This document shows positions 64-62,100 of a stretch of DNA of 64,000 nucleotides, piece after piece (the stretch's first letter is position 1; every line of letters starts with the position of its first letter). The notes beneath the pieces were generated by a model that was not told the DNA's origin, did no database searches, and saw nothing but the letters and a program-made list of their open reading frames with translations. A program made the translations under genes and the position numbers. Location of the stretch: positions 348,328-412,327 of the forward strand of contig CM119265.1 of the NCBI GenBank assembly GCA_051294375.1. Reading direction: 5' to 3'. Source of the DNA: Paraspadella gotoi (Eukaryota > Animalia > Chaetognatha).

Positions 64-67
64 CCAC

Positions 68-940: not shown

Positions 941-941
941 T

Positions 942-979: not shown

Positions 980-994
980 AAATCAACTATATCA

Positions 995-10536: not shown

Positions 10537-11185
10537 TGTGGCAAGTACATAAGTAGACGCCACAGTTGACGAAGACTTGGCAGCGTCAGCGTCACGTGAC
10601 TAAAGCATTGGCGCCACGAATATGAGGATGGCGTTCGATGTTGCAGGGAAAACGGGCCGAGTTAAGATTCGTTTTAATCGTTTTAAATTTAATGTTTCAT
10701 GAGTTTATAGAGATTAATCGATGAGATTAATTCAGTTAATTCGATGAGATTAATTGATGACATTAATCGAGTAAAAACATTATTTGAGATTCACGAGTTT
10801 TTCTCCAATATATCAAAATGTATTTTCTTACATTAAATATTGAGAATTAAAAACGATTTTGAGTCAGAAAACGAAAATAATGTATTCTTCATGAAAGCAA
10901 AACAAGACTGAAAACAATCTGTTTTTCAGATTTGAAAGTAAACGTCGTCGAACAAAAGGTTTAAGAAACAAACGCCATCTTGTTTTATCAGAGCAATTGA
11001 AAACGGTTGAAACAAAACAAAAGATGAATCGAGTTAAAATCATTAATCAAGATTTGAGTTCAGAATTTTAAGCCGCCCGGATGGCAGTGGGCACTTAGCC
11101 AGGCGTCCCGGACTCTCGATACCGGGTTCGATTCCCGGAGCGGATTGATGATTTATAAAATAAATACTCTTCGTTCGACGGCTAC
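10537..11185 (-). repeat. 5' LTR of copy B
   Basis: Lies between the PBS and a telomeric tract; its terminus matches the 3' LTR remnant. Confidence 0.85.
11073..11143 (+). promoter_or_regulatory. tRNA-like cassette in LTR B
   Basis: TGGCAGTGG A-box-like; T-arm CCGGG-TTCGATT-CCCGG; CCGC/GCGG acceptor-like pairing. Confidence 0.7.
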
Positions 11186-11253
11186 CAACCCAACCCTAAC
11201 CCAATAAACCCTAACCCCTAACCCTAACCCTAACCCTAACCCTAACCCTAACC
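11186..11253 (+). repeat. Telomeric repeat tract 2
   Basis: CCCTAA units. Confidence 0.9.
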
Positions 11254-11720
11254 TGTAGGTGAGACAGCAGGTGGCACGAAAAAGGAATTAAAAACAGAAT
11301 GGTGAATCCGGCCAACAGGGCTATTTAAAGAGTTTCAATCCAAGATGTCTGCCAACAGGCGTTTTAAATCCAAACAGTCATTCTAGATGGAAGATGGCTG
11401 ACAAATGAACATCGACAGTCTCCTTTGATATTAACTTGTTTCCAAACGTTAATAAGGTTGAATTAAGATATTCATTCAACAAGTGCCCGGTGGCATAATG
11501 GTTAAGACTTCTACTGTCGTCCATTAGGTCGCTGGTTCGAATCCAGAAGTATTCAGTTATTTATAATAATTAAATATGGCTCGGATTCGATATAAAGTAA
11601 GATAATATTATTCGGTGCCACTAACAATTAATACTACTACTAATATTAATAATAATAATTAGTTAAAGCTTGCGCGAACTGATTAATAATTAAATAGATT
11701 AATTATTTTACTTCGCTATA
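11254..11720 (-). repeat. 3' LTR of copy C
   Basis: Matches 17268-17732 apart from small indels. Confidence 0.92.
11483..11553 (+). promoter_or_regulatory. tRNA-like cassette in 3' LTR C
   Basis: TGGCATAATGGT A box; GGTTCGAATCC B box. Confidence 0.8.
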
Positions 11721-12122
11721 CGCCCCCCAGTCGAGAACGGGGGAAAATTTTTAACACGTGAACGACTAAAAAGCTTTTCGAAGAAAAAATATGATTTCCA
11801 CTACGGTTTGAAACGGGATTAGAGAAACACTCCTGAGTGTTAAAATGTAAATAAACATAACTCCGGATATAAAATTCGTAGACGATTGATTTTTGGTAAA
11901 TCAACAACTTGTTTAGAGAGGAATCGATTGGCTATTAAACATTGTTAATATTGTTTTTGCTTCGAGAATTACGGGTCACTACTGTGAGTGATCTAATATA
12001 AAGTTATGGGAAAACTGAATCGAGTTCGAGTAGATCGAGATTTAGATCGAAGAAAAAGTGAGTTTAAGAGATGAGTTGAAAGTGACTAACCCTCACTCCT
12101 CCTGGAGCGTGCCGAGGCGGAG

Positions 12123-15100
12123 TTATCCGGAGGTGGAGGCGGTCTCCTGAAGGAGGCGGGCCAGGACCTGGGCGTAGGAAGGGCGGTCGTTCGTCTCGAT
12201 GTTATTTAGATTCGATCTCTTCGTTGCTCGGTAGGAGAAATTATCCGGTGTGGGGCGAGAGAAACAAGGGATTCGCGTGGATGGATTCGAAGAGGCGGGA
12301 GGTGAGGGCGGAGGTGGGTGAGCGACTGTTTCCTCGTCGTTACGCGAATTTGAATTGTTTTCAAGTAAATTTTGATTCGAATTTCGATTTTCCTCATGAA
12401 TTAATTTGTTTCTCCCTTCGTTTTCGAATTGGGGGAAAAGGGGAGAAGGAGAATGAGGAGATCGGGGAGAGAGAGATTGTTGGGGAGAGGGAGACGGAGA
12501 GGAGTTGGGCTGGGGGAGAGGAGGAGGAGGAGGAGGAGAGGAGGGTGGTTGAAATGAGTTAGAAAGAGGGGGAGGAGCGGGCGAGTTTTTCGAAGTTGCT
12601 GATCGAAGAATTCGCGATGTTTTTTCAGGGATTCGCGTTCGTATGCCCGGCGGTCGGCCGGGAGGTGGAGGCGAGGGTGGCGGCGATGGCGTTGACGGTC
12701 GGCTATTGGCGTCGACGTCGTCGTCGTCCGCCTCCCACGCTGGTTTTACTCGAGAGATTGAGATTGTCTCTGTTCCTCTTCCGGGGAGTTCGATTTTGAA
12801 CGTTAAGTCATTACGTGAGATCACGCGAAATGGGCCGAGGTAAGGAGCGGAGAGGGCGTTGCCGGAGGCGCCGCGGCGGACGTAGACGTGCGTGGCGCGG
12901 CGTAACGCTTCCGGAAGTTGNNNNNNNNNNNNNNNNNGGGTCGATGTTTTAGTCGGTTGTAATCTGGCGACCTCGAGACGGAGATTCGCTAGCGTGCGGC
13001 GGCGTTGACGATTTTCCTCGGCGTCACTTCCGGTCCAGACCGGAAGTAGGTCTCCTGGGATGGCGACGGTTTCGCCGAATACTAATTCGGCGGGTGACGC
13101 CCCTATGTCGGGTTTCAGCGTAGTTCTTATCGATAATAGAGAGCAGGGGAGTTTCCAGAACCAGTCGCCGCGATGATCGGCGCCGAGGGCGATGAGAGAT
13201 TCTTTCAAACGGCGGTGGAACCTTTCCACCAGCCCGTTCGATTGTGGGTGGTACGCTGATGTTGGTTGATGCTTTATTCCCCAGGATTGTAGGAGTTGTT
13301 GCCACGTTGCCGATAGAAATTGAGATCCTCTGTCTGTAGTGATGATTGATGGGACGCCAANNNNNNNNNNCCATCCATGTACAAAGGCATCGGCTACGGT
13401 TTGGGCTGCTATGTCCTTGAGGGGGATGGCCGTAGGCCAGCGAGTGAATCGGTCAACGATTGTGAGGACGTAGCGAAATCCATTGGATGGGGGAAGTGAG
13501 ACAATATCGACGTGTAGATGTGAGAAACGTCGGTCTGGGGTTTCAAGTGATCCGATCTCGGGTATAGTGTTTTTTATCACTTTAGCCCTTTGACAATCAT
13601 GGCACTCTCTTGCCCATTTTGTCACATCTGATCTCATGGATGGCCATACGAATTTTTCGGATATGGTTTGACGTGTGCGTTCTATTCCCGGATGACCCAG
13701 GTTGTGGATAGCCTGGAAGACTTTTTTCCTCCAATTGTAGGGAACGAACGGTCTTAGTGGGCCGTTACTCACGTCTACAAAGATCTCCTGTGAGCCGATG
13801 GGAATTTTTCGAAATCGGAGACCTGATTGTGGCTCTTNNNNNNNNNNGGTTGATCTTTGGCGAGTTGTTCTAGGTCAAGGCCGTGATCTAATACCGAATT
13901 AATGATGCAGTTGAAGTTTTCTTGTTTGTCCTCAGCCACTGGCTTTGACACCGCTGCGATTATGGGCGGGAGCGAATTTGGAGCTTGGACGTTAGAGAGA
14001 GAAGGGAAGAGAGGAGGTGGGGTAGGGCTTGGCGGCGGAGGAGAGGGCGGAGTGACGATTTCTGTCGGCGTTGTCGTTACATTTGGACGAGATAGGGAAT
14101 CTGCAACGACATTTGCTTTCCCTGCCAAATATCTTATGTCGGTGGTAAACTCCGCTATCCCTGATAACTGGTAAGTTTGTCTAGCGGTATGCGGTTCTGT
14201 TTTTTTAGATAGAGCCGGGATGAGAGATTTGTGGTCAGTATATAGCGTGAAGTTTTGACCTTCAATCATTGGCCTAAAGTGTCGTATGGCTCGAAATGCA
14301 GCAAACAATTCCCTATCAAAGGGTGGCCATTTCTGTTGATTGCTTTGCAATTTCGCCGAAAAAAATGCCAATGGTTCCCATCCAAGGGGGCCTCGCTGTT
14401 CGAGGACGGCGCCCACTGCTGTGTTTGATGCATCTGACGTTACTGCCAGTTGAGCGCCTGCTCTTGGATGTCTGAGGAGAGCTGCTTGGGCTAGAGCTTG
14501 TTTTGTGGCTTCGAAGCTTTTCTGACAGTCGTCAGTCCATTTAAGTGTTTTGGGCTTGTTTTTTAAAGCTTCAAACAGATGGAACATGTGTTGAGCGCTC
14601 CTGGGAATGAACCTGCGGTAATAATTAATCATTCCCAGGAAACGCTGTAACTCCTTAATTGTAGTTGGAGGAGTGGTTTCCATTACTGCGTTGACTCTCT
14701 CTGGTAGTGGGGCGATGCCTTTTGCATCAACTCTGTAGCCTAAAAAGTCGACGGAGTTTTGTCCCAAGGAACATTTTTTCCTGTTTACTACCAGGCCATT
14801 TTGATGCAGTGCATCGAAGACCTCTTTAAGGTCTTGTTGATGTTGCTGTGGATTCTCAGATGCAACTAATATGTCGTCTATGTAGACGAACACGTGGGGT
14901 AGGCCTTGCAAGATTTCGTCCATTAATCGCTGGAAATCTTGCCCAGCATTTTTAAGGCCAAATGGAGTGCGAGGGAAAACAAATAATCCAAACGGGGTGA
15001 TTACTCCCGTTTTTTTTATGTCCTCTTCAGCAACGGGAATTTGGTGATAGCCTTTTAATAAGTCTATCTTGCTGAAAATTGTTTTCCCGGATAGATTGGC

Positions 15101-15910
15101 GTTAAAATCGTTTAGTGTTTTAACCGGGTATTTGTCATCGATTGTTGCATTGTTAAGGCGACGGAAGTCGCCACAGACTCTGTATCCGCCATCTGGTTTG
15201 CCTACTACATGGAGAGGCGATGCCCAATCGCTTTTTGCTCGTCGCGCGATTCCCAATTCGCAGAGTTTTTCTAACTCTGCACGAGCGACTTCTAATTTTT
15301 CAGGCGACAAGCGTCGAGCCTTTGATTGGATTGGCCTGCCCTCAGTTGGAATAAAGTGTTTCACTCCGTGTTTTGGTTCTTTGGGCTGAAAAGATGGGGT
15401 GCATAAATCTGGGTATGAGTCTAGTAGCTTGTAAAAAGGATCATCAGCTTGATCCACGAAGTTCACTCTTGGAGGATGTGGGATTGTTGTTGGACATGCT
15501 TTGAGGGTTGTAAAATCGGTGAGGTCGATTAAAAGGCCGTCACGATGGTTGGGAGCCAGATAATGCTCAGCGAGAAAATCTGCTCCCAGGATCGGCTGTG
15601 AAACTTTGGCTATCGTCACGGTGAATGGAAATATTCTACCGTCGAGATGGACCTCTACATCTCGGTAGCCAAAACATTGTATTGGGGTGCCGTTGGCTGC
15701 CTGCAATTTGACTCCATTGGCTCCTCTAACTATATCTGCTGCTGTTGGGGGAATTATGGAAACTAAAGCGCCCCCGTCGATTAACCATTCCAGTTTGTTT
15801 TTGTTGTCGTGAATGTAGAGGAGCGATCCATTGTCTTTATTCTGGCCGGATGGGACGGCATTCACATCCGTCCTCCGGCCGAGGCGTTTTCCGGCTTGAA
15901 TCGGAAACAC
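12123..15910 (-). CDS. pol: Pol of copy C (split at an N gap into ORFs 13775-15910 and 12123-13772)
   Basis: WLIDGGA, YIDD, RNase H, IN HHCC/DDE, PYLGPF. Confidence 0.9.
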
Positions 15911-16921
15911 CCTGCCGCGCAGTTCTTGGCTTTATCGCCAAACATCTTGTGATAGTAGCAGATGTTGACAGTAGAAGTAGTTGTGCCGCTGTTTTGTGGT
16001 TTCGGGTTTGTCTTTGTTGTAAATGGTTTTTTGTTGTTGTTGTTATTGTTTGTAATTGTTCTTGAGGCCGTACGATTCTGTATTTTTCCTCGATTAATTG
16101 CGTTGACCTCCTCGAATTGTCCTTCCTCTGGCATTAGTGGAGGGACGGCTGCATTGACGCCTGATGATGTCGTTGGATGAAGGAGTTTTCCATCCCTGTC
16201 GAAATAAGAGTCGGCGAGATCGGCGGTTGTGTCGGCGTCGAGTTTTTTCACTCTCTCCGTGAGGCTGCGTTGCACCTCGACAGGGAGACGTCGTAGAAGG
16301 CTCTCTTTGAGTATGTCGTCGACTGTGATGTCGCCGGCGCGATCCTTCATGATTGCCATCAGCTGAGATGGACGTCGACCGTCGCGATCGATGCCGTCGA
16401 GAATAGACGCCGCTTGTTGTGTTTTAGTACGACCATATTCGGCGTTTAAATAAGCGATGAATTGGTTCCAGCGGTCTTCAGTTGGTGCTCCATACAGAAA
16501 TGCATTTATTCGAGGATTATCACTGACGTTAAACTTGTCCTCAAGGTGAGCAAACTTTTCTGGCGCCGTCGAGATGTTTGCACGCACGTAGGCCGCCTCT
16601 ACGCGGCGAATCCAGATCTCCACGTTATCTGCATCGAATTCTGGGAGTTTGGGTTTCTTTAGTGCTGAGAATTGAGCTGAGAAAGCGCGCGTGAAGTCCG
16701 CGTGTGGATCGGGCGCCGTCGCCATCGTTCTGGCGTCGGAGAAGTTGGANNNNNNNNNNGGTGTGAAGGTGAAGACTCCGGGAGAGCCTCGAGCCGATGG
16801 CGAGATTGATTTCGCTCGTTGGCCGCGGCCGNNNNNNNNNNGGTAGCGTGAGATGACTTTGAGAGGCGTCGCTTTCTGACCCTTGGCGTCGCGCCGTTTG
16901 TCTTGTGACGATTGAGCTCAT
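15862..16921 (-). CDS. gag: Gag of copy C (N-terminal part crosses N gaps; second Met at 16725)
   Basis: KLPEFDADNVEIW; CYYHKMFGDKAKNCAAGC CHCC knuckle. Confidence 0.88.
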
Positions 16922-17267
16922 CCGGCGTCGTTTGTGATGAGGAGGGTGTTGGGTGAGTGGGAGGGAAGGGGGAGAAGGGGAGAAGTGGTTAGAGATGGCA
17001 AGGAATCGCCAAATATCTCTCACACGCCTTGCCTACCTGAGGAAAAGGCGAATTTCGTTGAAGCTTCTCCCTTTTGATGTCGACGCCCTTTGTTTTGATT
17101 TGTCTTAGATTTGTTTTGAAGGTAAAGTTCAGAGATTTTGTCGAATTGAATTTACAGTAACAGGAGAGGCTCAGAAAACAGGTTGCCTAGTTTTAAGTTT
17201 TGATGAATAAGTGCTAACAGTTGAGGTTTCAGAAGGTTGGTTTATTTTCAGAGTTGGGATCACCACT

Positions 17268-17732
17268 TGTAGGTGAGACAGCAGGTGCACCGAAAAAGGA
17301 ATTAAAAACAGAATGTGGTTGAATCCGGCCAACAGGGCTATTTAAAGGTTTCAATCCAAGATGTCTGCCAACAGGCGTTTTAAATCCAAACAGTCATTCT
17401 AGATGGAAGATGGCCTGACAAATGAACATCGACAGTCTCCTTTGATATTAACTTGTTTCCAAACGTTAATAAAGGTTGAATTAAGATATTCATTCAACAA
17501 GTGCCCGGTGGCATAATGGTTAAGACTTCTGACTGTCGTCCATTAGGTCGCTGGTTCGAATCCAGAAGTATTCAGTTATTTATAATAATTAAATATGGCT
17601 CGGATTCGATATAAAGTAAGATAATATTATTCGGTGCCACTAACAATTTATACTACTACTAATATTAATAATAATATTAGATTAAAAGCTTTGGCGATTA
17701 ATAATTAAATAGATTAATTATTTTACCTTACG
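17268..17732 (-). repeat. 5' LTR of copy C
   Basis: Direct repeat of 11254-11720, 2 nt from the PBS. Confidence 0.92.
17501..17572 (+). promoter_or_regulatory. tRNA-like cassette in 5' LTR C
   Basis: Same A/B boxes as 11483-11553. Confidence 0.8.
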
Positions 17733-17897
17733 CCTAACCCTAACCCTAACCCCTAACCCTAACCCTATAACCCTAACAACCCTAACCCTCTAACCCTAAC
17801 CCTACCCTAACCCTAACCCTAACCCTACCCTAACCCCCCTAACCCTAACCCTACCCTAACCTAACCCTAACCCTAACCCTAACCCTAACCCTAACCC
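17733..17897 (+). repeat. Telomeric repeat tract 3
   Basis: CCCTAA units with indels. Confidence 0.95.
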
Positions 17898-18335
17898 TGT
17901 AGATAAGAGATATCCTGGCGCCATGTGGACATGAGCATGAGTGAGGACAGAACCAAATCATTCTCCTTTAAAGGTAACAATCACCTGCTGCTTCACAATC
18001 AGCAGCCATCTTGTGTTATATGATCGATGACGACTAATTAAGGAACTATGTTAAACAAAGGTCATCGATGGAGATCAGTAACATAATAAAACCAGGTTTT
18101 GGTCGTTTCCAGATAAAAGCGCTTAACAGTATAATGGTTAAGACGTCGGACTGTGGATCGCTGGGCTCGTGGTTCGAATCCAGAGAGGTGAGTGTTATTA
18201 TTAATTTATAATATTAATCAGGAGACTCGATATGATCTAAAATATCATTATCGATAATTACTTAAAAATTAATATTGATTTGGTTTCGATTAAAATTAAT
18301 TATCATTAATTTTGGCGCCAGGTACAAAGGCTATA
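17898..18335 (-). repeat. 3' LTR of copy D
   Basis: Matches 24519-24942. Confidence 0.92.
18118..18190 (+). promoter_or_regulatory. tRNA-like cassette in 3' LTR D
   Basis: CAGTATAATGGT A-box-like, CTGTGGA anticodon-loop-like, GGTTCGAATCC B box. Confidence 0.78.
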
Positions 18336-18737
18336 CGCCCCCTAGAAAAAATTAGGGGAAAAAATTTTTCGCTTAATTTTATCTAAAAATAAGCTTGCCT
18401 TTGTTTCGAATTTGTGTACTAATTTACAAGTTAAAGTGAACACAGAAAATAGAAAAATAACACTTATGTGTTCAACGGAAAAAAACGGTAATGAAAATTG
18501 ATGTAAAATTGTAAATACGTTGGAGTTAGTATTCATTACTAACAATTTTGATGATATATACATTAACGAGTTGATTTCGGTGATTAATTGGTGATAATTA
18601 ATATCGAGGTGATTATCGGGTGATTAACGAGTTGATAATCGATAGTAACGGTAAAATTTGAATTAAAATTGAAATTGAAAGATTTCAAAGTAAAGGTTAA
18701 AGTTCGAATGAGACTTTAAAAGGGGATTGTTTTTTTT

Positions 18738-23609: not shown

Positions 23610-23986
23610 TCGCCGGTTGTTGACGTTGATAGGGATTAGTGGGGGGAGTGAGGAAAAAACGCGGTCAAAGATAGGCAAGGAATTAAGCCTAATTTATTCA
23701 CCTTCTTGCCTACCTGAGGGAAGGTTTGCATCCGCTTGAAGACCGGTTTGGCGAGGTGTGCTTCGAAATTTGTTTGCTTTGACTTTTAGAGTTGAATAAG
23801 TATTGCTTGCAGCTTAGTTTATAGACTATTAATTGTTTAGAGGGTCGAGATAGTTAGTTTCAAGGCTATTTGTGATGAATAAGTTTTCTAAGGCCTGAGA
23901 GATAGTTATCAGGATAGTTATCAGAAGGTTGGATTTAATTTTCGAGAGTTGGGCTCACCAGTTGTAGATAAGAGATAGAGAGAGAT

Positions 23987-24493: not shown

Positions 24494-24518
24494 NNNNNNN
24501 NNNNNNNNNNNNNNNNNN

Positions 24519-51569: not shown

Positions 51570-51827
51570 AGCCCCCCTTTATAATATAATCTCAAAAAAT
51601 ATTATAATAAAAATTGTTGTCGTCCAACGTGTGTGATTGTATGAGTGTGAAATAATATTACTAATTGGGTTTTAAAATATGTACAAAATATCGAAGTGGT
51701 TTGACAACCGGTTTAAACATGTAAAAGAAAAATTCAAATCGTTGCATACAAATTCCATAACAAACATTTCATAACAACAAAAATTTACAAAACAACAACA
51801 AATCGTTACATCTTGAATCTTTAATAA

Positions 51828-54800
51828 TCAAGGTTGACAGTCGGAGCGATGGAGACGGGAGGAAGACCGAGGATGCCGGGCGAAGATGCTCCGACTGTCG
51901 ATCAGGCCGACAGGGGGGCTTTTGTCTTTTTGTTGTTGTTGTTGTTTATCGTTTTGCATCTTTTGCCGCTGGAGCATCTCTTTGAGGACCACAGAGTATG
52001 TAGGACGATTCGGACATCTACTTGAGAAGTCGCTGATCGTTGGCCTCGAGAATCTCTCCCGATTCGGATCGTTTTCATCTTTTTGCTTGTTGTTGTTGTT
52101 GTTTTCTTCTCGATCCTTCGTTTTCGAACCTGTATTGCGTGGAGGCTCGGGAGAATGGGAAGGAGGGAGGAAAAAACGTAAAGGGGAAGGTTGGGGGTCG
52201 GGAAGGGGTTGGGGTATATTGGGGGAAAGTTGGGAAGCGGAAGGAGGAGGAGGAGGAGGAGGAGGAGGAGGAGAAGGAGGAGGAGGAGCAGGATTTGGCG
52301 ACGCAGCTCTTTGATTGCTCGAACGTGTCGTTCTTGATGTCGGAGCTGGGACTCTTGTTCTCAGGCCGGGTGGTCGGCCTGCTGGGCGTCGTCGGGGATG
52401 CTCCTGGTCCATCTCCAGCGTCTCGTCGCTTACCCACGCCGGTTTGACGCGAGCGATGTTGATTGTTTCCCTTCCGCTGCTGGGGATCTCGATGGTAATG
52501 TTCAAATTGTTTCGATTGACGACTCTGTAGGGTCCCTCATAAGGCGGAACGAGTGGTGGATGGACGCCTGCGCGCTTCACAAAGACATATTGCGCCGAGT
52601 CGAGATTACTGGGCAAATGAATTGTCGGTCGATGATGAGCGGAAGTGGGCGTTGGTTGCAATCGAGCAACCTCGATTCGAAGCTTCGCCAGCTGATTTTT
52701 TCGCTGTCGTTGAAGGGCGGCGTCGTCGAGCTGTGCGTCGTCGAGGATGCAGCCGGGGACGCCGATTCCCTCGCCGAAGACTAAATCGGCGGCGGAGGCG
52801 CCGATGTCTTCTTTGACGGTTGTCCTGATGGCGAGGAGGGTCATCGGCAGTTTCCAGTACCACTCTTCTTTGTTTTCTCGAGCTAGAGCTATCAGGGACT
52901 CCTTGAGGCGCCTGTGAAACCTCTCGACGAGGCCGTTCGCTTGTGGATGATACGGCGTCGTCATCTGATGTTTAATTCCCCATTGTTTCGTGAGTTGGCG
53001 CCAGAGTGCAGAGTTAAATTGTGTACCCCTGTCTGTTGTAATCGTTGCTGGCGTCCCGAAAACGCTGATCCAGTTGTGGCTAAATGCGTCAAGGATGGTC
53101 GAGGTGAGAGTGTCCTTAATTGGAATGGCCGTTGGCCATCGAGAAAATCGATCAACTATTGTTAATAGATTAGTGAATCCATTCGAAAGTGGCATTTTCA
53201 CTAGATCGAGGTTAATATGTTGGAACCTTTTTTGAGGAACCTTAAACTCTCCAATTTCAGGGATTACATGCCTTGTGATTTTCGCTCGTTGACAATCCAG
53301 GCAGTCTCGAGCCCATTTGGTAACATCTTGTCGCATGCTGGTCCACACGAACTTAGCAGCGACCGCTTTGCGTGTAGCCTCAATTCCGGGGTGTCCAAGT
53401 CCGTGGATAACGTTGAAGACCTTCTTGCGCCAAGACGCCGGCACGAATGGGCGCGCCGGTCCGTTTGATATGTCGGCTAAGAGGTCATAATTCCCTATTT
53501 TGATTTTTCGAAACGTTAACCCCGATCGAGCGTCTTCTGCTATTTTTTGGTAATCTGGATCCAGTGTTTGTTCTCTCGCCATGCTTTCAAAGTCTATTTC
53601 GAAGCTTGTCATAGAAGCAATCATCGCTTCTGCGTCCTCTAAGCGATTAGATTTGATCGATTTTTCACTCGTTTCGCTTTTCGTTGTCGACGACGCTGAC
53701 GGCGACGATAATAGCGACGACGGCGACGGCGAATGCGACGATATTTCGAACGACACTACTCCCGGCGTTTTTGACGCTGCTGTTGCTTCTTTTGAAGGCG
53801 GAGTTGTCGTCGAGGGTACTAACGGTGACGCCGGAGACGATGGTGATGTCGACGATGACGTTGGCGTCGACGTTGTCGTCGTTAGCGACGATATTGTCGA
53901 CGATGTTGGCGCTGGCGCTTTTTCCGTCGATGTTGACGTTGTTTCTGGTGTTGGCGTCGTTGTAGGCGTGGCGTTGGGTCTTGAGAGAGCGTCTGCAACG
54001 ACGTTCGCTTTCCCTTTCAGGTAGCGAACGTCCGTTGTAAATTCTGCTATAACAGACAATTGGTAGGATTGGCGCATAGTCTGAGGCTCTGCCTTCTTTT
54101 TTATGGCCGTTACGAGACTTTGATGGTCCGTATATAGCGTAAATGACCTCCCTTCGACCCAGTGACGGAAATGTCTGACCGCTTTGAATGCTCCGAATAA
54201 CTCTTTGTCGAAGGGCGGCCAGAGTTTTTGGTTTTTAGCTAGTTTGGTGGAAAAAAAAGCTAAGGGTTCCCAACCCTTCGGACCTCGCTGTTCCAGAACT
54301 GCTCCCACCGCTTGATCAGAGGCGTCCGTTGTTATGCACAATTGGGCGCCAGTTCTGGGGTGATGGAGGAGGGCGGCCTGGATCAATCCTTCCTTGATCG
54401 CTTGGAAAGCCTGGTCGCACTCTTCCGTCCACTCTAGCGTTTTTGGTTTCCCGCTGAGGGCGTCGTAGAGCGGCGCGCAGCGGTGAGCGACTCGCGAGAT
54501 AAACCGTCGATAATAGTTTATCATTCCTAGAAACCGTTGTAGTTCCTTGATTGTCGTGGGGCGAGTCGTCTCTTGCAGGGTCTTCACGCGTTCCGGAAGT
54601 GGTCTGACGCCGTGCCTATCGACGAGGAAGCCCAGGAATTCCAACGATTCCTGGCCCAACAAACATTTCTTGGTGTTAACGACCAAGCCGTTAGCGTCGA
54701 GTGCTTTGAAGACTTTTTCGAGGTCGTTGTAATGCTCCTCGGGTGTCGACGATGCCACGAGGATGTCGTCCAGATACACAAACGTATGGGGGATGTCCCC

Positions 54801-55793
54801 GAGGATTTCATCCATGAGCCTCTGAAAGTCTTGTCCGGCATTTTTCAAGCCGAACGGACAACGCGGAAAAACGTAAAGGCCGAATGGGGTTATAACCGCC
54901 GTTTTTTTTACATCTTCCGGATTGACGGGTATCTGGTGATACCCTTTTAGAAGGTCGATTTTCGAGAATATAGTTTTGCCTTCTAATTGGGAGTTGAAAT
55001 CCGTGAGAAGCTTGACGGGGTATTTGTCATCGATTGTTTGCGCGTTGAGGCGACGGTAATCGCCACAACAACGCCAACCTCCGTCCGGCTTCCCTACAAC
55101 GTGGAGTGGCGACGACCATTCCGATTTACCCCGTTTAGCAATGCCGAGGGAGACCATTTTCTCCAGCTCCCTTTTCGCGACGGCAAGCTTTTCCGGGTCT
55201 AAACGGCGTGCTCTCGATTGGCAGGGCCTGCCCTCCGTTGGGATCGAATGCGTTACTCCATGGCGCGGCTCTTTTAATTCGAAAGTGGGCGTGGAGAGAG
55301 ACGGAAACGAGTCGAGTAATTTGTAAAATTTCTCCCCCTGCCTGTCGACGAAGTTGACATGGGAAGTAGTCTCTGCTGCTGATGATGCTGCGATCGTCGA
55401 ATAATCTTTGAGATCCAGTAACAGCCCGTCTCTATGGTTTGGCGCCAAATAATTCTCGGCTAGAAAGTCCGCGCCCAAAATATGCTGCTTCACATCTGCA
55501 ATGACGAATTCATATTGAAATTGGCGGTTTCCGAGTTGCACTACTCTTTTCGTTGTCCCATAGCAGCCGATTGGCGAGCCGTTGGCCGCTTGAAGGCGAA
55601 TCTTCGGGTCAGGGCCGCCTTGTCGCTGTGCTGCCGTTGGCGGAACGATCGAAAGAAGGGCTCCCCCATCCACGAGCCACTTCGTGCGGTCTTTGGCGTC
55701 GCGGATGTATAGGAGGTCACTCGACGCTGGTGATTGATTCATCTCCTGGGGGACGGCGTTCACCGACGTCGTCCCCCTTTGGAGTTTCCCTCC
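51828..55793 (-). CDS. pol: Pol of copy J (intact)
   Basis: 1311-aa ORF with WLVDGGA, YLDD, RNase H, IN and PYEGPY. Confidence 0.95.
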   Translation of the reverse strand, partial: GGKLQRGTTSVNAVPQEMNQSPASSDLLYIRDAKDRTKWLVDGGALLSIVPPTAAQRQGGPDPKIRLQAANGSPIGCYGTTKRVVQLGNRQFQYEFVIADVKQHILGADFLAENYLAPNHRDGLLLDLKDYSTIAASSAAETTSHVNFVDRQGEKFYKLLDSFPSLSTPTFELKEPRHGVTHSIPTEGRPCQSRARRLDPEKLAVAKRELEKMVSLGIAKRGKSEWSSPLHVVGKPDGGWRCCGDYRRLNAQTIDDKYPVKLLTDFNSQLEGKTIFSKIDLLKGYHQIPVNPEDVKKTAVITPFGLYVFPRCPFGLKNAGQDFQRLMDEILGDIPHTFVYLDDILVASSTPEEHYNDLEKVFKALDANGLVVNTKKCLLGQESLEFLGFLVDRHGVRPLPERVKTLQETTRPTTIKELQRFLGMINYYRRFISRVAHRCAPLYDALSGKPKTLEWTEECDQAFQAIKEGLIQAALLHHPRTGAQLCITTDASDQAVGAVLEQRGPKGWEPLAFFSTKLAKNQKLWPPFDKELFGAFKAVRHFRHWVEGRSFTLYTDHQSLVTAIKKKAEPQTMRQSYQLSVIAEFTTDVRYLKGKANVVADALSRPNATPTTTPTPETTSTSTEKAPAPTSSTISSLTTTTSTPTSSSTSPSSPASPLVPSTTTPPSKEATAASKTPGVVSFEISSHSPSPSSLLSSPSASSTTKSETSEKSIKSNRLEDAEAMIASMTSFEIDFESMAREQTLDPDYQKIAEDARSGLTFRKIKIGNYDLLADISNGPARPFVPASWRKKVFNVIHGLGHPGIEATRKAVAAKFVWTSMRQDVTKWARDCLDCQRAKITRHVIPEIGEFKVPQKRFQHINLDLVKMPLSNGFTNLLTIVDRFSRWPTAIPIKDTLTSTILDAFSHNWISVFGTPATITTDRGTQFNSALWRQLTKQWGIKHQMTTPYHPQANGLVERFHRRLKESLIALARENKEEWYWKLPMTLLAIRTTVKEDIGASAADLVFGEGIGVPGCILDDAQLDDAALQRQRKNQLAKLRIEVARLQPTPTSAHHRPTIHLPSNLDSAQYVFVKRAGVHPPLVPPYEGPYRVVNRNNLNITIEIPSSGRETINIARVKPAWVSDETLEMDQEHPRRRPAGRPPGLRTRVPAPTSRTTRSSNQRAASPNPAPPPPSPPPPPPPPPPSASQLSPNIPQPLPDPQPSPLRFFLPPSHSPEPPRNTGSKTKDREENNNNNKQKDENDPNRERFSRPTISDFSSRCPNRPTYSVVLKEMLQRQKMQNDKQQQQQKDKSPPVGLIDSRSIFARHPRSSSRLHRSDCQP

Positions 55794-56827
55794 TTCTTAC
55801 GCTGAGTGTCGTTGTACCTGGAGCATCCTGGCTCACAGGACCACGCTTCCTCTCCAAACTTAACGTGTTTGTGGCAAAGCGTCGTCAACTTGGATTTGGT
55901 CTTGCCTTTGTGGATCTGGTTGTGCTTCTTTTTGTTGTTGAAGGCCTTCTTGACGTTGGCGCCGACAGCATTGACGGCGTCGTCGTCCTCTGAATCAGAT
56001 TCGAGTCGCTCTACGTTGCTGATGAACGTCGTCGATTGGCGAATTTTCACATTGCCTTCATTATCGAAATGCCTGTCTGCTATTTCGCACAACTCCTTTG
56101 CCGACAGGTCGTCCGCTTTCTCCTCGAGTTGACGTCTTATTTCGAGTGGGAGTTCCCTGAGGACCTTCTCTTTCCGGACGTCGTCGATTGTCAAAGTTTT
56201 TGTCCTCTCTTCGAGCTGAGCTAATAATTTAGACGGTTTTAATCCGTCGGCGTCGAGAGGATCGAGGAGGTTGACGGCCTGTTGGCGTCGCGTGAGGCCG
56301 TACTCCTTGCGGAGATATCCTAAGAAAGCTGACCATGTTGCCTCCGTTGCCTCGCCGTATAGAAACTGGTTAATGCGAGGATCTACCTTGACGCCAATCT
56401 TGGACTCAAGATGAGCAAACTTCGTTTTTGGAGCAGTGATGCCGGCGCGTGTATATGCCGCTTCCACGCGTTTTATCCAGATTTCGATATTATCCTTGTC
56501 GAAATCCGGAAGCTCCGGCTTTCGACTGGATGCCCTTTCGAGGGCGCGCGTGGCGGCGGCTAAAGCGGCGCGAAGTTCGTCGTTTTCGTCCTGGAGGTCG
56601 CGTTGGCTGTTTCCCTCTGACGCCATGTCGGCGTCGACGAAGTTTTCGGCGTTGATTTCTCTGAAGTTGAACGAAGGAGTAGCGTCAGCGAAGACGGGGG
56701 AGGTAGAGCGTGACCTAGCGCCGCGTCCAAAGCCTATAGGGACCTGTAGGCTCGATGCAGCGTTGCCTTGACCTTCAGCGTTGCGCTGGGCTGATCGTAG
56801 GCGGGATCGGACGTCTGAGTCGCTCAT
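55760..56827 (-). CDS. gag: Gag of copy J
   Basis: 355 aa; CHKHVKFGEEAWSCEPGC knuckle. Confidence 0.93.
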   Translation of the reverse strand: MSDSDVRSRLRSAQRNAEGQGNAASSLQVPIGFGRGARSRSTSPVFADATPSFNFREINAENFVDADMASEGNSQRDLQDENDELRAALAAATRALERASSRKPELPDFDKDNIEIWIKRVEAAYTRAGITAPKTKFAHLESKIGVKVDPRINQFLYGEATEATWSAFLGYLRKEYGLTRRQQAVNLLDPLDADGLKPSKLLAQLEERTKTLTIDDVRKEKVLRELPLEIRRQLEEKADDLSAKELCEIADRHFDNEGNVKIRQSTTFISNVERLESDSEDDDAVNAVGANVKKAFNNKKKHNQIHKGKTKSKLTTLCHKHVKFGEEAWSCEPGCSRYNDTQRKKEGNSKGGRRR

Positions 56828-57034
56828 GAGTCGATTCGAAATGCTCGTCGACTAGTGGTGCCGTTTTTTGACTCCGTGTGGCGGTCGAAAATGCAAGGAA
56901 ATAATAGGGGTGTGAGCAATTGGATGATTGGCTTAATAACCCCGATTTCCTCACCCAATCTTACCTCAGGGGAGATTGATTCGCGTTAGACCGCCTGTAG
57001 AAGGTTGGTTGCGTTTTAAGTCGAGTTCACCAAG

Positions 57035-57732
57035 TGTGGTGAGGCATATGAGTTGAACCACAGCGCGACGACGTTGCCTTACACACCTTGTGACATATGT
57101 GCTGAGCATCATGACGATCTTAGTCTTTTAGCGTTAGACGTTAGATGGCGCAGGGAAAAGTAGGTCACATGATTTGTAGATTATATTGAAACGTTTATAA
57201 TTAATATTTGAAGCGAGATTAAATATGAGATTAATATTAAACGTTTGTTTATTAAGATTCGTTGTGAGATTATTAATTCGAATGAAGAATAATTAATTGA
57301 AGATTAATTTATTTTATTGGATTAATAATTTCACTTGTTGTAAAATCGAGTTCTCATCATTTAATGTACTCAATACATTTCGGGATAGATTTAAAACAAT
57401 GTTTTTTAATGTTGTTTTAACATTATATTAACGAGATCAAAAACAAGAGTAAAATGAATCAGACTTCAATCATTGAAGTAAACAGTTAATAAAACAAAAG
57501 CAGTTGAAATGGCGGTAAGACATCTCTAGTTGAGTTCTATTAATCTAGGAAAAACAAAAGGCTTCGTTCTTGGTTTAAAGCTTTAAAACAGGTTTTAATC
57601 TGGCGATAAAACATGGCCTCTTGGTTGGCTGAGAGGTTAAACTCGAAGCGTCCCAAGCCTGAGTTCGAGGTTCGAATCCCGGCTGCTGGATGAATTATTT
57701 TCTCACCAGATAATTCGCTCAAGTTGGCCGCA
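57035..57732 (-). repeat. 5' LTR of copy J, with tRNA-like cassette 57614-57690 (+)
   Basis: Direct repeat of 50876-51569. Confidence 0.92.
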
Positions 57733-57762
57733 ACCCTACTAACCCTTAACCCTAACCCTAAC

Positions 57763-57799
<37 letters not shown>

Positions 57800-57926
57800 C
57801 CCTAACCCTAAACCCTATACCCTAACCCTAACCCTTAACCCTAACCTACCCCTAACCCTAACCCTAACCCTAACCCTAACCCTAACCCTTACACCAACTG
57901 CTAACCCTAACCCTTACCCTTAACCC
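57733..57926 (+). repeat. Telomeric repeat tract 8
   Basis: CCCTAA array. Confidence 0.93.
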
Positions 57927-58774
57927 TGTGGCATAAGGCGCTAAGTGGGCGAAGATGACTATCCGTTAACTCTCTATTACCTCCCTCTAGCAGACCATGG
58001 AACGAGTCCTGGGCTCTTGCGATACAGGCTTGAGGGTTCGCCAACGCCCCCAAGGCCGGCTTACCCGGCCGTCCTCACTCTTCCCGCAAGGTCAGCTACC
58101 GGCGCTTGTGCATTTGAACCCGGCTGAAACCGGGCCTCCTGGTCCCAACGGTGTTTAGCGACCGTCCCTCCCATTTTTGACCTGAATTGTGGTCCATGAG
58201 CCCGAATCGGCGTCTGTAGCTCAAAATGAGCCACCGGGGTCCACATACTTGAAAAGCAGTTCTATGCTTTATAGGCTGGGGGTTTGAACCATTGCAATGC
58301 CCCGACTACATGCCCCCCCAGATTGTCAACCCACCCTGCACTGCTTTCCAGCTGGAGGGAGGGGAGCAATTCGTTCGCGCACGTCATGGGCCTGATTCAG
58401 AAGGTGGGAATACGCATCGACAGGATGCACGGTCTCTCACCAGCTGCTGGGAATAAGGCCGGCTAAGTGGGCGCCTTGAGTTATGACTATTTCCCGTAAC
58501 TTCTTATATACCCCCTCTATGCAGCACAATGGAACGGCGTTCCTGGGCTTTTGCGAACCAGCGCTGAGGGCTTTCGCCACGCCCCCAAGGCGGCCTGTAC
58601 GGCCGTCCTCACCTCTTTCCCGCAGGTAGGTACCGGCGTTGATTGAACCCACCGTAGCCTTAGTGGTCATGAGCTGATGCGCTGTTTACTCAATGAGCCA
58701 CTCGGGTCACACTGAAAGAGGTCATGCTTATACGGCGCGGCACCCTGTGACACCTAGGCAATGCTCGGACTACA
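57927..58774 (-). mobile_element. Non-autonomous miniature LTR element (TRIM-like)
   Basis: Noisy direct repeats 57927-58310 and 58445-58774, both ending GACTACA. The 134-bp interior has a PPT (58313-58319), a TCAGAAGGTG box and a PBS (58431-58442); no ORF. Confidence 0.75.
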
Positions 58775-59189
58775 CCACTAACCCTAACCCTACTTACACC
58801 GCTAACACCATAACCCTAACCCTAACCCTACTAACCCGTACCCTAACCCTAACCCTCAACCCTAACCCTAACCTAACCTACCCTAACCCTAACCCTAACC
58901 CTAACCCTTAACACCCTAACCCTACCCTAAACCCTAAACCCTTAGACAAACCACCTAACCCTAAACCCTAACCCGTAACCCGACCCTAACCTAACCTACC
59001 CTAACCCTAACCCTAACCCTAACCCTGACTAACTCAACCTAACACCTAACCCTACCCTAACCCTAACCCTAACACCTTAAACCTAACCTAACCCTTAACC
59101 CTAACCCTACCTAAACCCTTAACTAACACCTAACCCTAACCCTAAACCCTAACCCTATACCCTACCCACACCTGACTAACCCTAACCCC
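58775..59189 (+). repeat. Telomeric repeat tract 9 (degenerate)
   Basis: CCCTAA array with many variants. Confidence 0.9.
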
Positions 59190-62100
59190 TGTTGGCGCGG
59201 CGTGCATATAGTGGAGCCCCAGACTTGACGAAGCACCGCTACGCCGTTAAGTGTAGTGTCACTAGACTCTTACAGACATTCCAAGCCAGATAATTAATGA
59301 ATGATTAGCTTGGGCCGCAGGGAATCTTTGTGCGCTATTCTGAATGTATATCAGTTTTATTCGCTAGACGGCAGCAGTAGCAATCAGATGGTCCGTCGTT
59401 TAGTCTCTTTCGAATTAGGCACCATTAAGGACGGTTTTAATTTAGCAGTTGAAATTAAACGGAGTTAATGTTAGTTCGAGCATTAAGAATCTTTGAGACT
59501 ACTACCGGTTTTTAACACTTCTTTAATTCAGCCGCATCTGAATCATTCTTTCAGAATTAGCAGCATTCTAATTCTTTAGATTTTATTTCGATTTGATCTT
59601 TATTTTCTCATGTTTTTAATGTAGCTATTTACATTTTAGTGAGAGATTAAATATAAAACAATGAGATCAAATCATTACGTATTCATGTATTATTTGACAT
59701 GAACATTAACAAAACCGCAACCTTGCATTTCAGATCTAGAAAACACAAACTCTCAGAGCGATAACACAATCGATTGCAGCAGCAGCTGGCCGAAATGATT
59801 TGGCGTACCGCCCTCCTGACGGAGGAAACCAACTAGTTTTGTAGGAAACAAATAGATGTACATACGCGAATATCTGTTTTAAATGCTTTAGGTTCGAATT
59901 CGAATTCAATTCGATTTTCAGAAGCCAGTTTAGCGCTTGCGCTATAATCGCTGGGCTTCTCGCACTCTTCACGATACCAGGATCGCAATCCTAGATCGGT
60001 GGCCGCATCTATTTATACAATAGTAGGTCGATCGAAGCATCTTCATCCCCCTTGCTGATTAAATATATAATCTTTATAATATTTACATTAAAATTTGAAA
60101 GTTAATAGAATTAAAATTGTTGTCGCTCCGGTAATGTGCTGTGATTGTGTACAAAATATATAAACCGTATTTCTTAACATTGCGGGTAAATCGTAGTTTC
60201 ATTTCGACGAATTGAAATAAAAAATTGACCTAGATTTCTAGAAATTGACGAAGGTATAAAATCTGTACAAATAAATTATTGTAAAATACTGCTAAATTGG
60301 GTTTTCCCAAGAATACTTTAATATACAAAAACAACCAAAATATTTATTCTAATAATGGCTTAAGGGAGCTCGGCCGTCGAAGTCAATGCCGAGGGTGCGA
60401 TGCTGTCATGGAGGCGAGATTTTCAAGCTGACTGGCTTCGACCGGTTGACCTTAAGGCGGCAAAATTATTTGGTTTCTATTTTCTACTTGGATTTTTCTT
60501 TTGCTGTCCCTGCTTGATCAACTCTTTCTGCAGGAACCTCCCAGCGGCGATGCTTAGGGGCGTTCGCGTCGCACGCTTTGTGACCGCCTTGTTCGAAAAG
60601 TTCGTTGGCAGCGTTTGGCTCTCGAGCAATACGCGCTAATAGCGTTGGTGCTTCATCTTTTTGCTCCTCTCGGCTTAGTTGTGCTTTGTCTGTTGTTCTA
60701 ACTGATTGTCTCTTTTTCTCTCGCTACGTACTGAACGTTCGTTAGCGTTGGTCAATGTCCATCCGTCATGGCGAGGTGCGCTGACAGGTACAAGGAAGGG
60801 AAGGATGGGTAGCCAAAAAAAACGCGCGGGAAGGAGGGGGGTTGTTGCCGGGGAAGTGGGGGAAGGTTTTGGTGCGCCTGCCGGTCGGCGGGAAGGATGC
60901 GCAGGATGCGACGGAGGAGGAGCGAGGGAGGAGGTAATTGGAGGAGGGCACAGCTGCGCGCGTTGGATTTGCTCTATTCGCTGCGGCCGAGGTGAGGTTC
61001 TTGACTGTCGGCGCGTGGCTGCCCTGCGTTCTGACGCCAGCTGTGCGGCGGTCTCGCCCTGGCCTTGCTCTCTGGATGTCCTCTGCGGCGGGTGTCGACC
61101 TCCAACTCGTCGTCACTAATCCATGCCGGTTTTATTCTGGCGATGTTGACGGTTTCCCTTCCCACGTTTGGAACTTCGATTGTCATATTTAGCCCGTTTC
61201 GGCTAATAACGCGGTAAGGACCGTCATAAGGTGGCACCAAGGGGGGGTGTACGCCTGCCTTGCGTACAAACACGTATTTTGCAGAGTCGAGATTTGCTGG
61301 TAAATGCACCGCGGGCTGTCGGTGGGCGGAAGTAGGCGTGGGCTGGAGTCTGGCGACCTCGATACGCAATTTCGCCAATTGATTCTGACGTTGTCGATTT
61401 AGAGAGTCGTTGTCGGGTTGAATGTCGCCGAGTAAGCTTCCAGGGACGCTAAGACCTTCGCCGAAGACCAGATCCGCCGCGGAGGCGCCGATGTCCTCTT
61501 TGATTGTCGTTCTAATCGCGAGTAACGTCAATGGCAATTTCCAGTACCATTTCTCTCTCGATTCTTTTGTCAACGCCATAATTGACTCTTTGAGCCGTCT
61601 GTGAAATCTTTCCACAAGCCCATTTGCTTGTGGATGATATGCGGTAGTTGTCTGATGTTTTATGCCCCAGTTTTTCATTAACTGTTGCCATAATGTCGAA
61701 CAAAACTGACTACCTCGATCTGTGGTTATGACGGCCGGCGTTCNNNNNNNNNNNNNNNNNNNNNNNNNNNNNNNNNNNNNNNNNNNNNNNNNNNNNNNNN
61801 NNNNNNNNNNNNNNNNNNNNNNNNNNNNNNNNNNNNNNNNNNNNNNNNNNNNNNNNNNNNNNNNNNNNNNNNNNNNNNNNNNNNNNNNNNNNNNNNNNNN
61901 NNNNNNNNNNNNNNNNNNNNNNNNNNNNNNNNNNNNNNNNNNNNNNNNNNNNNNNNNNNNNNNNNNNNNNNNNNNNNNNNNNNNNNNNNNNNNNNNNNNN
62001 NNNNNNNNNNNNNNNNNNNNNNNNNNNNNNNNNNNNNNNNNNNNNNNNNNNNNNNNNNNNNNNNNNNNNNNNNNNNNNNNNNNNNNNNNNNNNNNNNNNN

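What the first reader, a model, noticed from the sequence alone, without database searches (positions are those of the whole stretch)
11073..60005. Antisense tRNA-like Pol III cassette near the outer end of nearly every LTR
Otherwise dissimilar LTRs carry A box + B box (GGTTCGAWTCC) with a T-arm stem: 218-285 (-), 11073, 11483/17501, 18118/24724, 37545, 38005, 49951, 51454/57614, and a degenerate copy at ~59923. The cassette is always antisense to the element, with its B box ~50-180 bp from the LTR 5' terminus. Boxes are conserved while acceptor and anticodon stems have decayed, suggesting selection for TFIIIC binding rather than for a tRNA. Known: tDNAs and B boxes act as heterochromatin barriers in yeasts, and Cassandra TRIMs carry 5S sequences in their LTRs. 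Inference: a built-in insulator against telomeric silencing, or an outward-facing Pol III promoter.
Basis: partly seen in the sequence, partly recalled or inferred. Interest (0 to 1): 0.9.

Follow-up and report, generated by a model that had tools for sequence, protein, structure and literature searches.

The report
Telomere retrotransposons carry backward tRNA-type promoter
A lineage of retrotransposons found stacked inside telomere repeats keeps a decayed, backward-facing tRNA-type promoter in its end repeats, which likely recruits the tRNA transcription machinery to hold the element's own promoter open in a place that would otherwise silence it.

Summary
Observation confirmed. The window is a stack of CsRn1-like Ty3/gypsy LTR retrotransposons inserted in (TTAGGG)n with a GGGT duplication. 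All 12 autonomous-element LTR copies that retain their outer part carry an antisense tRNA-like cassette (one degenerate). B-box columns are 83% identical across nine lineages against about 33% around them; A-to-B spacing stays 43-45 nt; a T-rich motif follows at terminator distance. The cloverleaf is lost and the T stem only partly kept. A profile of the cassette found it, again antisense, in the one complete LTR of the same RT clade from an outside metagenome locus (L012, E 3e-5), and in none of 18 clean LTRs of ordinary CsRn1-like relatives. It is therefore a conserved trait of an apparently unnamed clade, which also has long LTRs, a degenerate primer site and a long integrase tail. Most likely it is a Pol III (TFIIIC) promoter acting as barrier or open-chromatin element (inferred, untested). 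Rivals: antisense RNA, or a Ty3-like second primer site. Closest known: Helenus/Cassandra, which are non-autonomous and sense-oriented. A link to telomeres specifically is not shown.

The parts
205..285 (-). Cassette in 5' LTR (68-939, +) of element E1: A box from 276, B box 233-223, T5 run 209-205
72..82 (-). Second B-box-like motif at the very end of the E1 LTR
11073..11158 (+). Cassette in 5' LTR (about 10537-11185, -) of element A: A box 11082, B box 11125-11135; no T4 before the LTR end
11483..11564 (+). Cassette in 3' LTR (11254-11720, -) of element B; B box 11534-11544
17501..17583 (+). Cassette in 5' LTR (17268-17728, -) of element B; A box 17509, B box 17553-17563
18118..18199 (+). 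Cassette in 3' LTR (17899-18335, -) of element C; A box 18127, B box 18171-18181
24724..24808 (+). Cassette in 5' LTR (24519-24941, -) of element C; A box 24733, B box 24777-24787
37545..37628 (+). Cassette in LTR E (37327-37749, -; outer end in an N gap); A box 37553, B box 37598-37608
38005..38087 (+). Cassette in LTR D (37776-38222, -); A box 38013, B box 38057-38067
49950..50033 (+). Cassette in 5' LTR (49491-50064, -) of element F; A box 49958, B box 50003-50013
51454..51539 (+). Cassette in 3' LTR (50876-51570, -) of element G; B box 51508-51518
57614..57701 (+). Cassette in 5' LTR (57035-57732, -) of element G; A box 57626, B box 57669-57679
59923..60016 (+). Degenerate cassette in 3' LTR (59190-60044, -) of element H; B-like box 59980-59991 with one extra base
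5522..10434 (-). Element A gag (9289-10434, CX2HX9CX3C motif) and pol (5522-9388; RT, RNase H, integrase with GPY and a 234-aa tail)
12123..16917 (-). Element B gag-pol, pol split over two frames in this assembly
19111..23693 (-). Element C gag-pol
32141..36753 (-). Element D gag-pol
38893..43786 (-). Element E gag-pol, broken frames
44510..49368 (-). Element F gag-pol
51828..56851 (-). Element G gag-pol
60974..64000 (-). Element H pol, partial, with N gaps
8..59188 (.). Telomeric (CCCTAA)n tracts separating the elements: 8-62, 11187-11253, 17733-17898, 24944-25687, 37035-37324, 38222-38443, 50064-50843, 57739-57927, 58778-59188

Best explanation
The cassette is a tRNA-derived sequence with the layout of an RNA polymerase III type-2 promoter, kept in antisense near the outer end of the LTR across a clade of autonomous CsRn1-like retrotransposons, and it likely binds TFIIIC, TFIIIB and Pol III to form a nucleosome-poor barrier between flanking chromatin and the element's own Pol II promoter. 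Shown: presence, orientation, position, box conservation, fixed A-B spacing, T-rich motif at terminator distance, loss of the cloverleaf, presence in an outside clade member, absence from outgroup LTRs, insertion of the window's elements in telomeric repeats. Inferred: one ancestral capture of a tRNA gene or SINE head into the LTR; binding of Pol III factors; a short (about 80-95 nt) antisense RNA whose sequence hardly matters; facing outward so that Pol III does not run into the Pol II promoter; protection from silencing in telomeric arrays. I put about 0.75 on 'selected Pol III/TFIIIC promoter' and 0.45 on the whole barrier reading.
For: B box 83% mean pairwise identity over nine lineages against 30-34% ungapped in the neighbouring blocks. 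A-box start to B-box start 43-45 nt in 9 of 9 lineages, the tRNA-gene distance (recalled), although the sequence between is no better conserved than flanks. T-rich motif 11-15 nt past the B box in 8 of 9 by pattern and aligned in 9 of 9 window rows; a plain T4 or T5 run at that place in E1, G5 and L012. An A just upstream of the expected start in 8 of 9. No shared fold, z from -2.5 to +1.2; acceptor stems 1-4 of 7 pairs. Profile R1 finds L012:699-789(-) inside a PPT-to-PBS LTR as the best hit in 462,118 bases (E 3.3e-5; 3.5e-6); L012 nests in the same RT clade (support 1.0), with RT-RNase H identity across the clade down to 63-72%. No hit in a further 275,061 bases or in any outgroup LTR. In fission yeast a tDNA barrier needs A box, TFIIIC and Pol III (PMC2040200, passages). 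All intact outer LTR ends in the window abut telomeric repeats.
Against: No occupancy or stranded RNA data. The A box is weakly conserved by identity (33% ungapped) and L012's B box departs from consensus at two positions. Six of nine lineages have no T4 run at the terminator place, and the motif reads as TATAAAT on the element strand in five window families (A, B, C, E, H). The yeast barrier is orientation-independent, so a barrier alone does not force the antisense orientation. Cassette and telomeric insertion could not be tied: L012 has element sequence on both sides of its LTR, and it is the only complete outside clade LTR (1 of 5 clade loci). The clade also has a degenerate PBS, which fits the primer rival. 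Whether this host silences telomeric repeats, or whether the array is truly terminal, is unknown.
Confidence: 0.45

Rival explanations
1. The Pol III unit matters for its RNA: with weak terminators it would read out of the 5' LTR into telomeric repeats (C-rich telomeric RNA) and out of the 3' LTR into the PPT and 3' UTR, giving antisense RNA that limits the element or remodels telomeres.
For: Explains the fixed antisense orientation. Families A and F have no T4 run between B box and LTR end, and B-E have the first T4 129-176 nt away; B box is only about 50 nt from the end in A, F, G, H.
Against: E1, G5 and L012 have a canonical T run right after the cassette; B-E would stop near the LTR end; the T-rich motif is conserved at terminator distance in all rows.
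Confidence: 0.18
2. The sequence works as RNA on the element's sense strand: a second, 3' primer-binding site that pairs with the T and D arms of the primer tRNA, as in Ty3, making up for a weak 5' PBS.
For: Ty3 has such a U3 site for the T-psi-C and D arms (PMC5371799, passages); Drosophila gypsy has a 3' PBS (PMC1635307, abstract). It predicts antisense orientation and conservation of just these two arms. Clade PBSs carry 1-5 mismatches in 13 nt in 11 of 11, against 0-1 in 35 of 45 outgroup loci with a called PBS (of 92 examined; the outgroup pattern favours good matches).
Against: The cassette follows the generic B-box consensus, not the primer: position 62 is C in 9 of 9 where the primer end read from an 18-nt outgroup PBS has A; positions 59-60 vary; positions 63-73 match in only 3-6 of 11. 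tRNA-length spacing, start-site A and terminator-place T run are not predicted. The host's own primer tRNA could not be read (no genome).
Confidence: 0.15
3. The block is part of the Pol II signals of the LTR: the conserved motif is a TATA box or poly(A) signal on the sense strand and the B box is a TFIIIC site sitting on the start or cleavage site.
For: TATAAAT on the sense strand at fixed distance in A, B, C, E, H; AATAAA overlaps the place in E1 and D.
Against: F, G and L012 have neither TATAAA nor AATAAA there while keeping the T run on the other strand; does not explain the A box and spacing; other promoter-like motifs (recalled YY1-type and E-box words) lie 150-600 nt further in.
Confidence: 0.1
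4. Landing pad: Pol III factors on resident copies (or on the cDNA end) help tether the integrase, as TFIIIB does for Ty3, so new copies pile up beside old ones in the same telomeric tracts.
For: At least nine families share one array; the clade has a long integrase tail (median 258 aa after GPY against 12-136 in 65 outgroup tails) with short conserved motifs in 58 and 79 of 102 clade proteins against 0 and 3 of 65. Ty3 Gag-Pol is the closest solved relative.
Against: Insertions fall at a fixed phase of the telomeric repeat, 43-780 nt tracts away, not at a fixed distance from the cassette or at its start site.
Confidence: 0.07
5. Neutral relic: a SINE head or tRNA pseudogene that once landed in an ancestral LTR, or was spread by LTR exchange among neighbours, with no present function.
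For: tRNA-like pieces are said to occur in 'not a few' Repbase LTRs (PMC10886601, section 3.1); a free SINE family in the host could not be excluded without a genome.
Against: Strongly uneven conservation (83% against about 33%) and unchanged spacing across lineages whose RT-RNase H differ by about a third; presence in L012; no copy outside LTRs in the window.
Confidence: 0.05

Closest known systems
Helenus (TRIMp3; Kojima 2024, PMC10886601)
   Same: tRNA-derived sequence inside LTRs, conserved around A and B boxes, mostly not a functional tRNA, not complementary to its own PBS; animal forms have 4-bp TSDs and are tied to Gypsy.
   Different: Helenus is non-autonomous (311-1263 bp) and its cassette is sense (120 forward against 7 reverse B-box words in the supplement), read as the promoter of the element RNA. 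Here it is antisense, near the outer end, in 5.5-7 kb gag-pol elements; the paper expects autonomous partners not to share such LTR sequence.
Cassandra and Ajax TRIMs
   Same: Pol III promoter from a small-RNA gene conserved in LTRs.
   Different: 5S-derived (boxes A, IE, C), non-autonomous, drives the element's own RNA in Cassandra.
CsRn1 clade of Ty3/gypsy (CsRn1, PwRn1, AgCR; PMC2582038)
   Same: CX2HX9CX3C gag motif, Trp-type PBS, 4-bp TSD, GPY/F, no env or chromodomain.
   Different: Relatives fetched here have 116-389 bp LTRs without cassette, canonical PBS, short integrase tails and varied, non-telomeric target sites.
Ty3 bipartite PBS; Drosophila gypsy 3' PBS
   Same: tRNA-complementary sequence in the LTR/3' end of a Ty3/gypsy element.
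   Different: Those are short boxes matching the primer; this is a whole gene-length unit matching the generic promoter consensus, not the primer.
tDNA and B-box chromatin barriers of fission yeast (PMC2040200)
   Same: A/B-box unit at a junction with repeat chromatin; model for the proposed function.
   Different: Host genes, shown by experiment; here carried by a mobile element and untested.
Telomere-targeting retroelements: Ty5, and non-LTR TRAS/SART, HeT-A/TART/TAHRE (PMC4700185)
   Same: Concentration at chromosome ends.
   Different: Ty5 is copia-type and targets Sir4 chromatin, not the repeat; the repeat-specific elements in that review are non-LTR. Here Gypsy-type LTR elements sit at one phase of TTAGGG.

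Membership tests
CsRn1 clade | Gag CX2HX9CX3C (CHCC) motif | tested here: met
   6 of 7 gag frames; definition from PMC2582038
CsRn1 clade | tRNA-Trp primer-binding site | tested here: inconclusive
   Window PBSs resemble the canonical outgroup PBS with 1-5 mismatches in 13 nt; that this PBS is Trp-type is recalled and fits the PwRn1 abstract; host tRNA not available
CsRn1 clade | PR-RT-RH-IN order, GPY/F, no env or chromodomain, 4-bp TSD | tested here: met
CsRn1 clade | RT groups with named CsRn1 members | tested here: inconclusive
   No named CsRn1 sequence was fetched; the window clade is a long-stemmed group whose position relative to the canonical-PBS relatives has weak support
Helenus / TRIMp3 | tRNA-derived A/B-box sequence in both LTRs | tested here: met
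Helenus / TRIMp3 | Non-autonomous, short (under about 1.3 kb), no coding | tested here: not met
   Elements encode gag-pol
Helenus / TRIMp3 | Promoter oriented to transcribe the element (sense) | tested here: not met
   0 of 13 sense, 11 of 13 antisense; Helenus 120:7 sense
Functional tRNA gene | Cloverleaf with acceptor, D, anticodon and T stems | tested here: not met
Pol III type-2 promoter | A box and B box at tRNA-gene spacing followed by a T-run terminator | tested here: inconclusive
   Boxes and spacing met in 9 of 9; canonical T4+ in 3 of 9, non-canonical T-rich motif in the rest
Pol III type-2 promoter | TFIIIC/TFIIIB/Pol III occupancy and transcript | not testable with these tools
   No raw stranded RNA run listed
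tDNA chromatin barrier | Blocks spread of silencing in a box-dependent way | not testable with these tools
   Needs reporter or chromatin profiling
Ty3-type bipartite PBS | U3 boxes complementary to the primer tRNA's T and D arms | tested here: inconclusive
   No match beyond generic T-loop against the primer end inferred from outgroup PBS; host primer unknown
Self-encoded primer | Cassette 3' end complementary to the element's own PBS | tested here: not met
   Longest match 4-6 nt in 9 of 9

The most novel reading that the evidence does not exclude
An unnamed clade of autonomous Gypsy elements has specialised on telomeric repeats with a linked kit: an integrase tail that aims at one phase of TTAGGG, and a captured Pol III gene in every LTR that insulates the element from telomeric silencing, seeds further insertions beside resident copies and, where its terminator leaks, transcribes the C-rich telomere strand, so that the elements reshape the host's chromosome ends.
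Probability: 0.15. Interest if true: 0.9.

Novelty: new variant of a known kind. Interest (0 to 1): 0.68.

Why it matters
Pol III promoters in LTRs are described for short non-autonomous elements, where they drive the element's RNA; the Helenus paper expects autonomous partners not to share them. Here full-length elements keep one facing backwards across deep divergence, so it must do something else. If it is a portable tDNA barrier, it shows a transposon solving the cost of living in a silent safe harbour, and offers nine natural variants for testing what a tDNA barrier needs in animals. The same elements are LTR retrotransposons inserted at a fixed phase of TTAGGG, which my literature searches did not find described; their integrase tail is a candidate telomere-targeting module.

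Tried and rejected
No host genome is held, so a free SINE family, the host tRNA set and genome-wide insertion sites could not be examined. ARAGORN and Rfam found no tRNA in the window. No RNA holder was listed. Contigs of four runs laid on 5200-11180 show many variant copies of element A in three DNA runs and a contig joining the LTR start to the PPT; run X9, only guessed to be RNA, covered the 3' UTR and LTR positions 11115-11158 but not the rest of the LTR; this fits either a sense 3' end just past the B box or antisense read-through, has no strand, comes from one study and is not used as evidence. A finer read test on a second family and of LTR flanks elsewhere in the genome remains open. 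A 20-nt cassette word hit 90 viral-contig stretches, 80 inside ARAGORN tRNAs of 15 anticodon types: tRNA-like, but no parent tRNA can be named. Viral-contig searches gave nothing, only distant Gypsy elements or chance hits without retroelement genes. Self-priming rejected. A shared RNA fold rejected. No TRFH-type F/YxLxP motif is shared by the integrase tails (1 of 6 window tails, 2 of 102 relatives). IQ-TREE timed out; trees are FastTree on BLAST-anchored columns; E1 and the 25.7-27.3 kb fragment were long-branch artefacts of frameshifts, and the latter was dropped (84 columns). Of 31 auto-called LTR segments, 3 were empty, 9 doubtful (over 400 bp or lacking a convincing PBS) and 1 was L012; 18 are counted as clean. 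Three weak R1 hits in L062 (E 0.014-0.026) lie outside its element. Gag search gave 72 relatives, none named; Atlas hits were unnamed clusters. Earlier scan notes: none by place, sequence or telomere words; two loosely related by words.

Full report
Setting. The window begins in (CCCTAA)n and holds nine telomeric tracts separating LTR retrotransposons, almost all on the minus strand. Pol frames carry RT, RNase H and integrase in Ty3/gypsy order, Ty3 Gag-Pol is the closest solved structure, and 6 of 7 gag frames have the CX2HX9CX3C motif that PMC2582038 (passages read) gives as the CsRn1 signature. I label the elements E1, A-H and a small non-coding element T. Paired LTRs differ by 3, 5 and 12 substitutions in 467, 427 and 712 columns with more gap columns than substitutions: recent insertions in an error-prone assembly. 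Every intact outer LTR end abuts telomeric repeats at the same phase, giving a 4-bp GGGT duplication, clean at 6 of 12 minus-strand junctions. Which internal region belongs to LTRs D and E is uncertain because of N gaps. No host genome is held; an animal host is inferred from the repeat and the clade.

The observation. A B-box pattern, widened after inspection, hits the antisense strand within 200 nt of the LTR start in 11 of 13 LTR stretches and never the sense strand; shuffles hit in 0.1-2.2%. The misses are the degenerate H copy and element T. A sequence-only profile R1, built from nine family representatives, finds 12 window copies at E of 3e-9 or better (nine are training rows, three their sister LTRs) and nothing else below E 0.2. 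LTR remnants at about 5170, 23963, 38445 and 44035 are too short or gapped to hold it.

Anatomy. Over eight window lineages and L012, the 11 B-box columns are 83% identical pairwise, against 30-34% for upstream flank, A-box block, middle and 3' acceptor strand, and 47% for the block at terminator distance (ungapped). The A-box start lies 43-45 nt before the B box in all nine (for G the third candidate is taken). An A precedes the expected start in 8 of 9, and a T-rich motif follows the B box by 11-15 nt; it is a plain T4/T5 run in E1, G5 and L012 and TTATTT-like in most others (that such motifs can end Pol III transcripts is recalled). On the element strand the same motif reads TATAAAT in five families. 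T stems keep 28 of 40 pairs in the window lineages, acceptor stems 1-4 of 7; folds share nothing; ARAGORN and Rfam see no tRNA. So DNA-level promoter features are kept and the tRNA is gone.

Distribution. A pol search returned thousands of relatives; the best 120 are nearly all unnamed proteins at 66-71% identity, and gag found 72 relatives, none named. Scans of metagenome, viral and genome collections gave 78, 14 and 27 loci. Trees on BLAST-anchored RT columns put all window elements, the unnamed proteins and loci L001, L002, L004, L006, L012 in one clade with support 1.0 on a long stem. Only L012 has a complete LTR (PPT at 440, 777 bp, PBS at 1223). R1 hits it antisense at 699-789, the best hit in 462,118 bases (E 3.3e-5), with a B-like box about 265 nt from the LTR start and a T4 run 15 nt after it. 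That L012 comes from another host is inferred from its divergence and source. No hit fell in outgroup LTRs: none in 275,061 further bases and none in 18 clean LTRs of 116-389 bp (several are related, so they are not 18 independent lineages). Ten outgroup elements with flanks are not telomeric, and only 2 of 119 loci hold even two tandem repeats, away from element ends as far as seen. The cassette is thus a clade trait, present on both sides of the deepest splits sampled. The clade also has long LTRs (420-870 bp), a degenerate PBS and a long integrase tail with its own motifs.

Mechanism. Conservation of both boxes at tRNA spacing with a start-site purine and a terminator-place T run is what a working Pol III type-2 promoter would leave. 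It cannot drive a 6-kb element and faces away from it. The product's sequence is not conserved, so the assembled complex is the likelier point. In fission yeast a tDNA barrier needs A box, TFIIIC and Pol III and works in either orientation (PMC2040200, passages). For an element living in telomeric repeats, a complex between the LTR end and its Pol II promoter would hold chromatin open, and facing outward avoids running Pol III into that promoter. This last part is inference (0.45). Against it: no binding or RNA data, non-canonical terminators in six of nine, unknown position of the Pol II start, and no way to link cassette and telomeres outside this window. The read-through rival (0.18) explains orientation better but not the conserved terminator-place motif. 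The Ty3-like second primer site (0.15; PMC5371799 passages; PMC1635307 abstract; a similar tRNA-gene-like stretch in HIV-1 U3-R is recalled, paper not held) gains from the degenerate PBS but loses because the cassette follows the promoter consensus where that differs from the inferred primer. Pol II-signal (0.10), landing-pad (0.07) and neutral (0.05) readings follow. These roles need not exclude one another.

Comparison. Helenus (PMC10886601; parts 1-4 of 6 of the text, passages, and a motif search of the supplement) is the nearest kind: tRNA-derived A/B boxes in LTRs. It is non-autonomous and sense-oriented, so this is not Helenus, though it is built like it. That paper notes that 'not a few' Repbase LTRs hold tRNA-like pieces and analysed only short elements, so related autonomous cases may sit uncommented in Repbase, which I could not search. 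Literature searches for telomere-repeat-specific Gypsy/CsRn1 elements and for antisense B boxes in LTRs (listings only unless cited) found no description; the review PMC4700185 (passages) names Ty5 and non-LTR elements, and PMC5408684 (passages) does not describe repeat-specific insertion for TelKA. The library lacks most subscription papers, so absence is weak. Pol III units in foamy-virus LTRs are a recalled further precedent, not checked.

Verdict. Real, far beyond chance, conserved across a clade and absent from ordinary relatives. New variant of a known kind; interest 0.68. The function is untested, but ChIP, stranded RNA and an LTR reporter would separate the readings.

Noticed in passing
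window 8-59188, junctions listed: LTR elements sit at one phase of the telomeric repeat with a GGGT duplication: clean at 6 of 12 minus-strand junctions, the rest off by a base or two in noisy sequence; E1 is inverted relative to the repeat. Ten outgroup elements with flanks have varied, non-telomeric sites. Arguably as notable as the cassette.
   Followed up: partly
window 38445-38450 and 25684: An LTR cut after about 6 nt, and a pol fragment without LTR, run straight into G-strand telomeric repeats, as expected from breakage and telomerase healing; suggests a true chromosome end, but assembly error is possible.
   Followed up: partly
window 5522-6200 (-) and equivalents; P0003-P0120: Integrase has a long proline-rich tail with two short conserved motifs (FSxP in 58 of 102; an RP-led, probably helical end motif in 79 of 102) nearly absent from 65 outgroup tails; candidate targeting motif.
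   Followed up: partly
window 57927-58774 (-): Small non-coding element with two diverged LTR-like repeats, PBS-like and PPT-like sites, inserted in the telomeric repeat; lacks the antisense cassette but may carry a sense TATA/A-box/B-box-like series (Helenus-like). Sequence is noisy; R1 and Rfam gave no significant hit.
   Followed up: partly
window PBS sites 942, 10534, 17265, 23960, 37022, 44032, 49488, 57032; L002, L004: Degenerate PBS followed 15-45 nt later by a conserved CCAACCTTCT-type word, shared with outside clade members; a splice-donor-like word follows further on.
   Followed up: no
window 17899-18335, 37327-37749, 37776-38222: Short-LTR families have subterminal inverted repeats (CCTGGCGCCA-type words near both ends).
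   Followed up: no
window about 5170-5198: Element A's 3' LTR is cut after about 17 nt and joined to the integrase region of the inverted element E1: rearrangement or chimeric assembly; other copies have an intact PPT-LTR junction.
   Followed up: partly
window 23963-24090 and 37022-37330: Odd LTR junctions: a 128-nt hybrid of a D-type LTR start and C-type end before element C's PBS, and a telomeric tract lying between an LTR and the PBS of element D.
   Followed up: no
window 27300-31100: Non-retroelement DNA with AT-rich microsatellites and low-complexity open frames, the only likely host sequence in the window; no cassette copy.
   Followed up: no
L062 15281-16792: Three tandem tRNA-like/SINE-like units with B box and T run in host DNA beside an outgroup element.
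   Followed up: no
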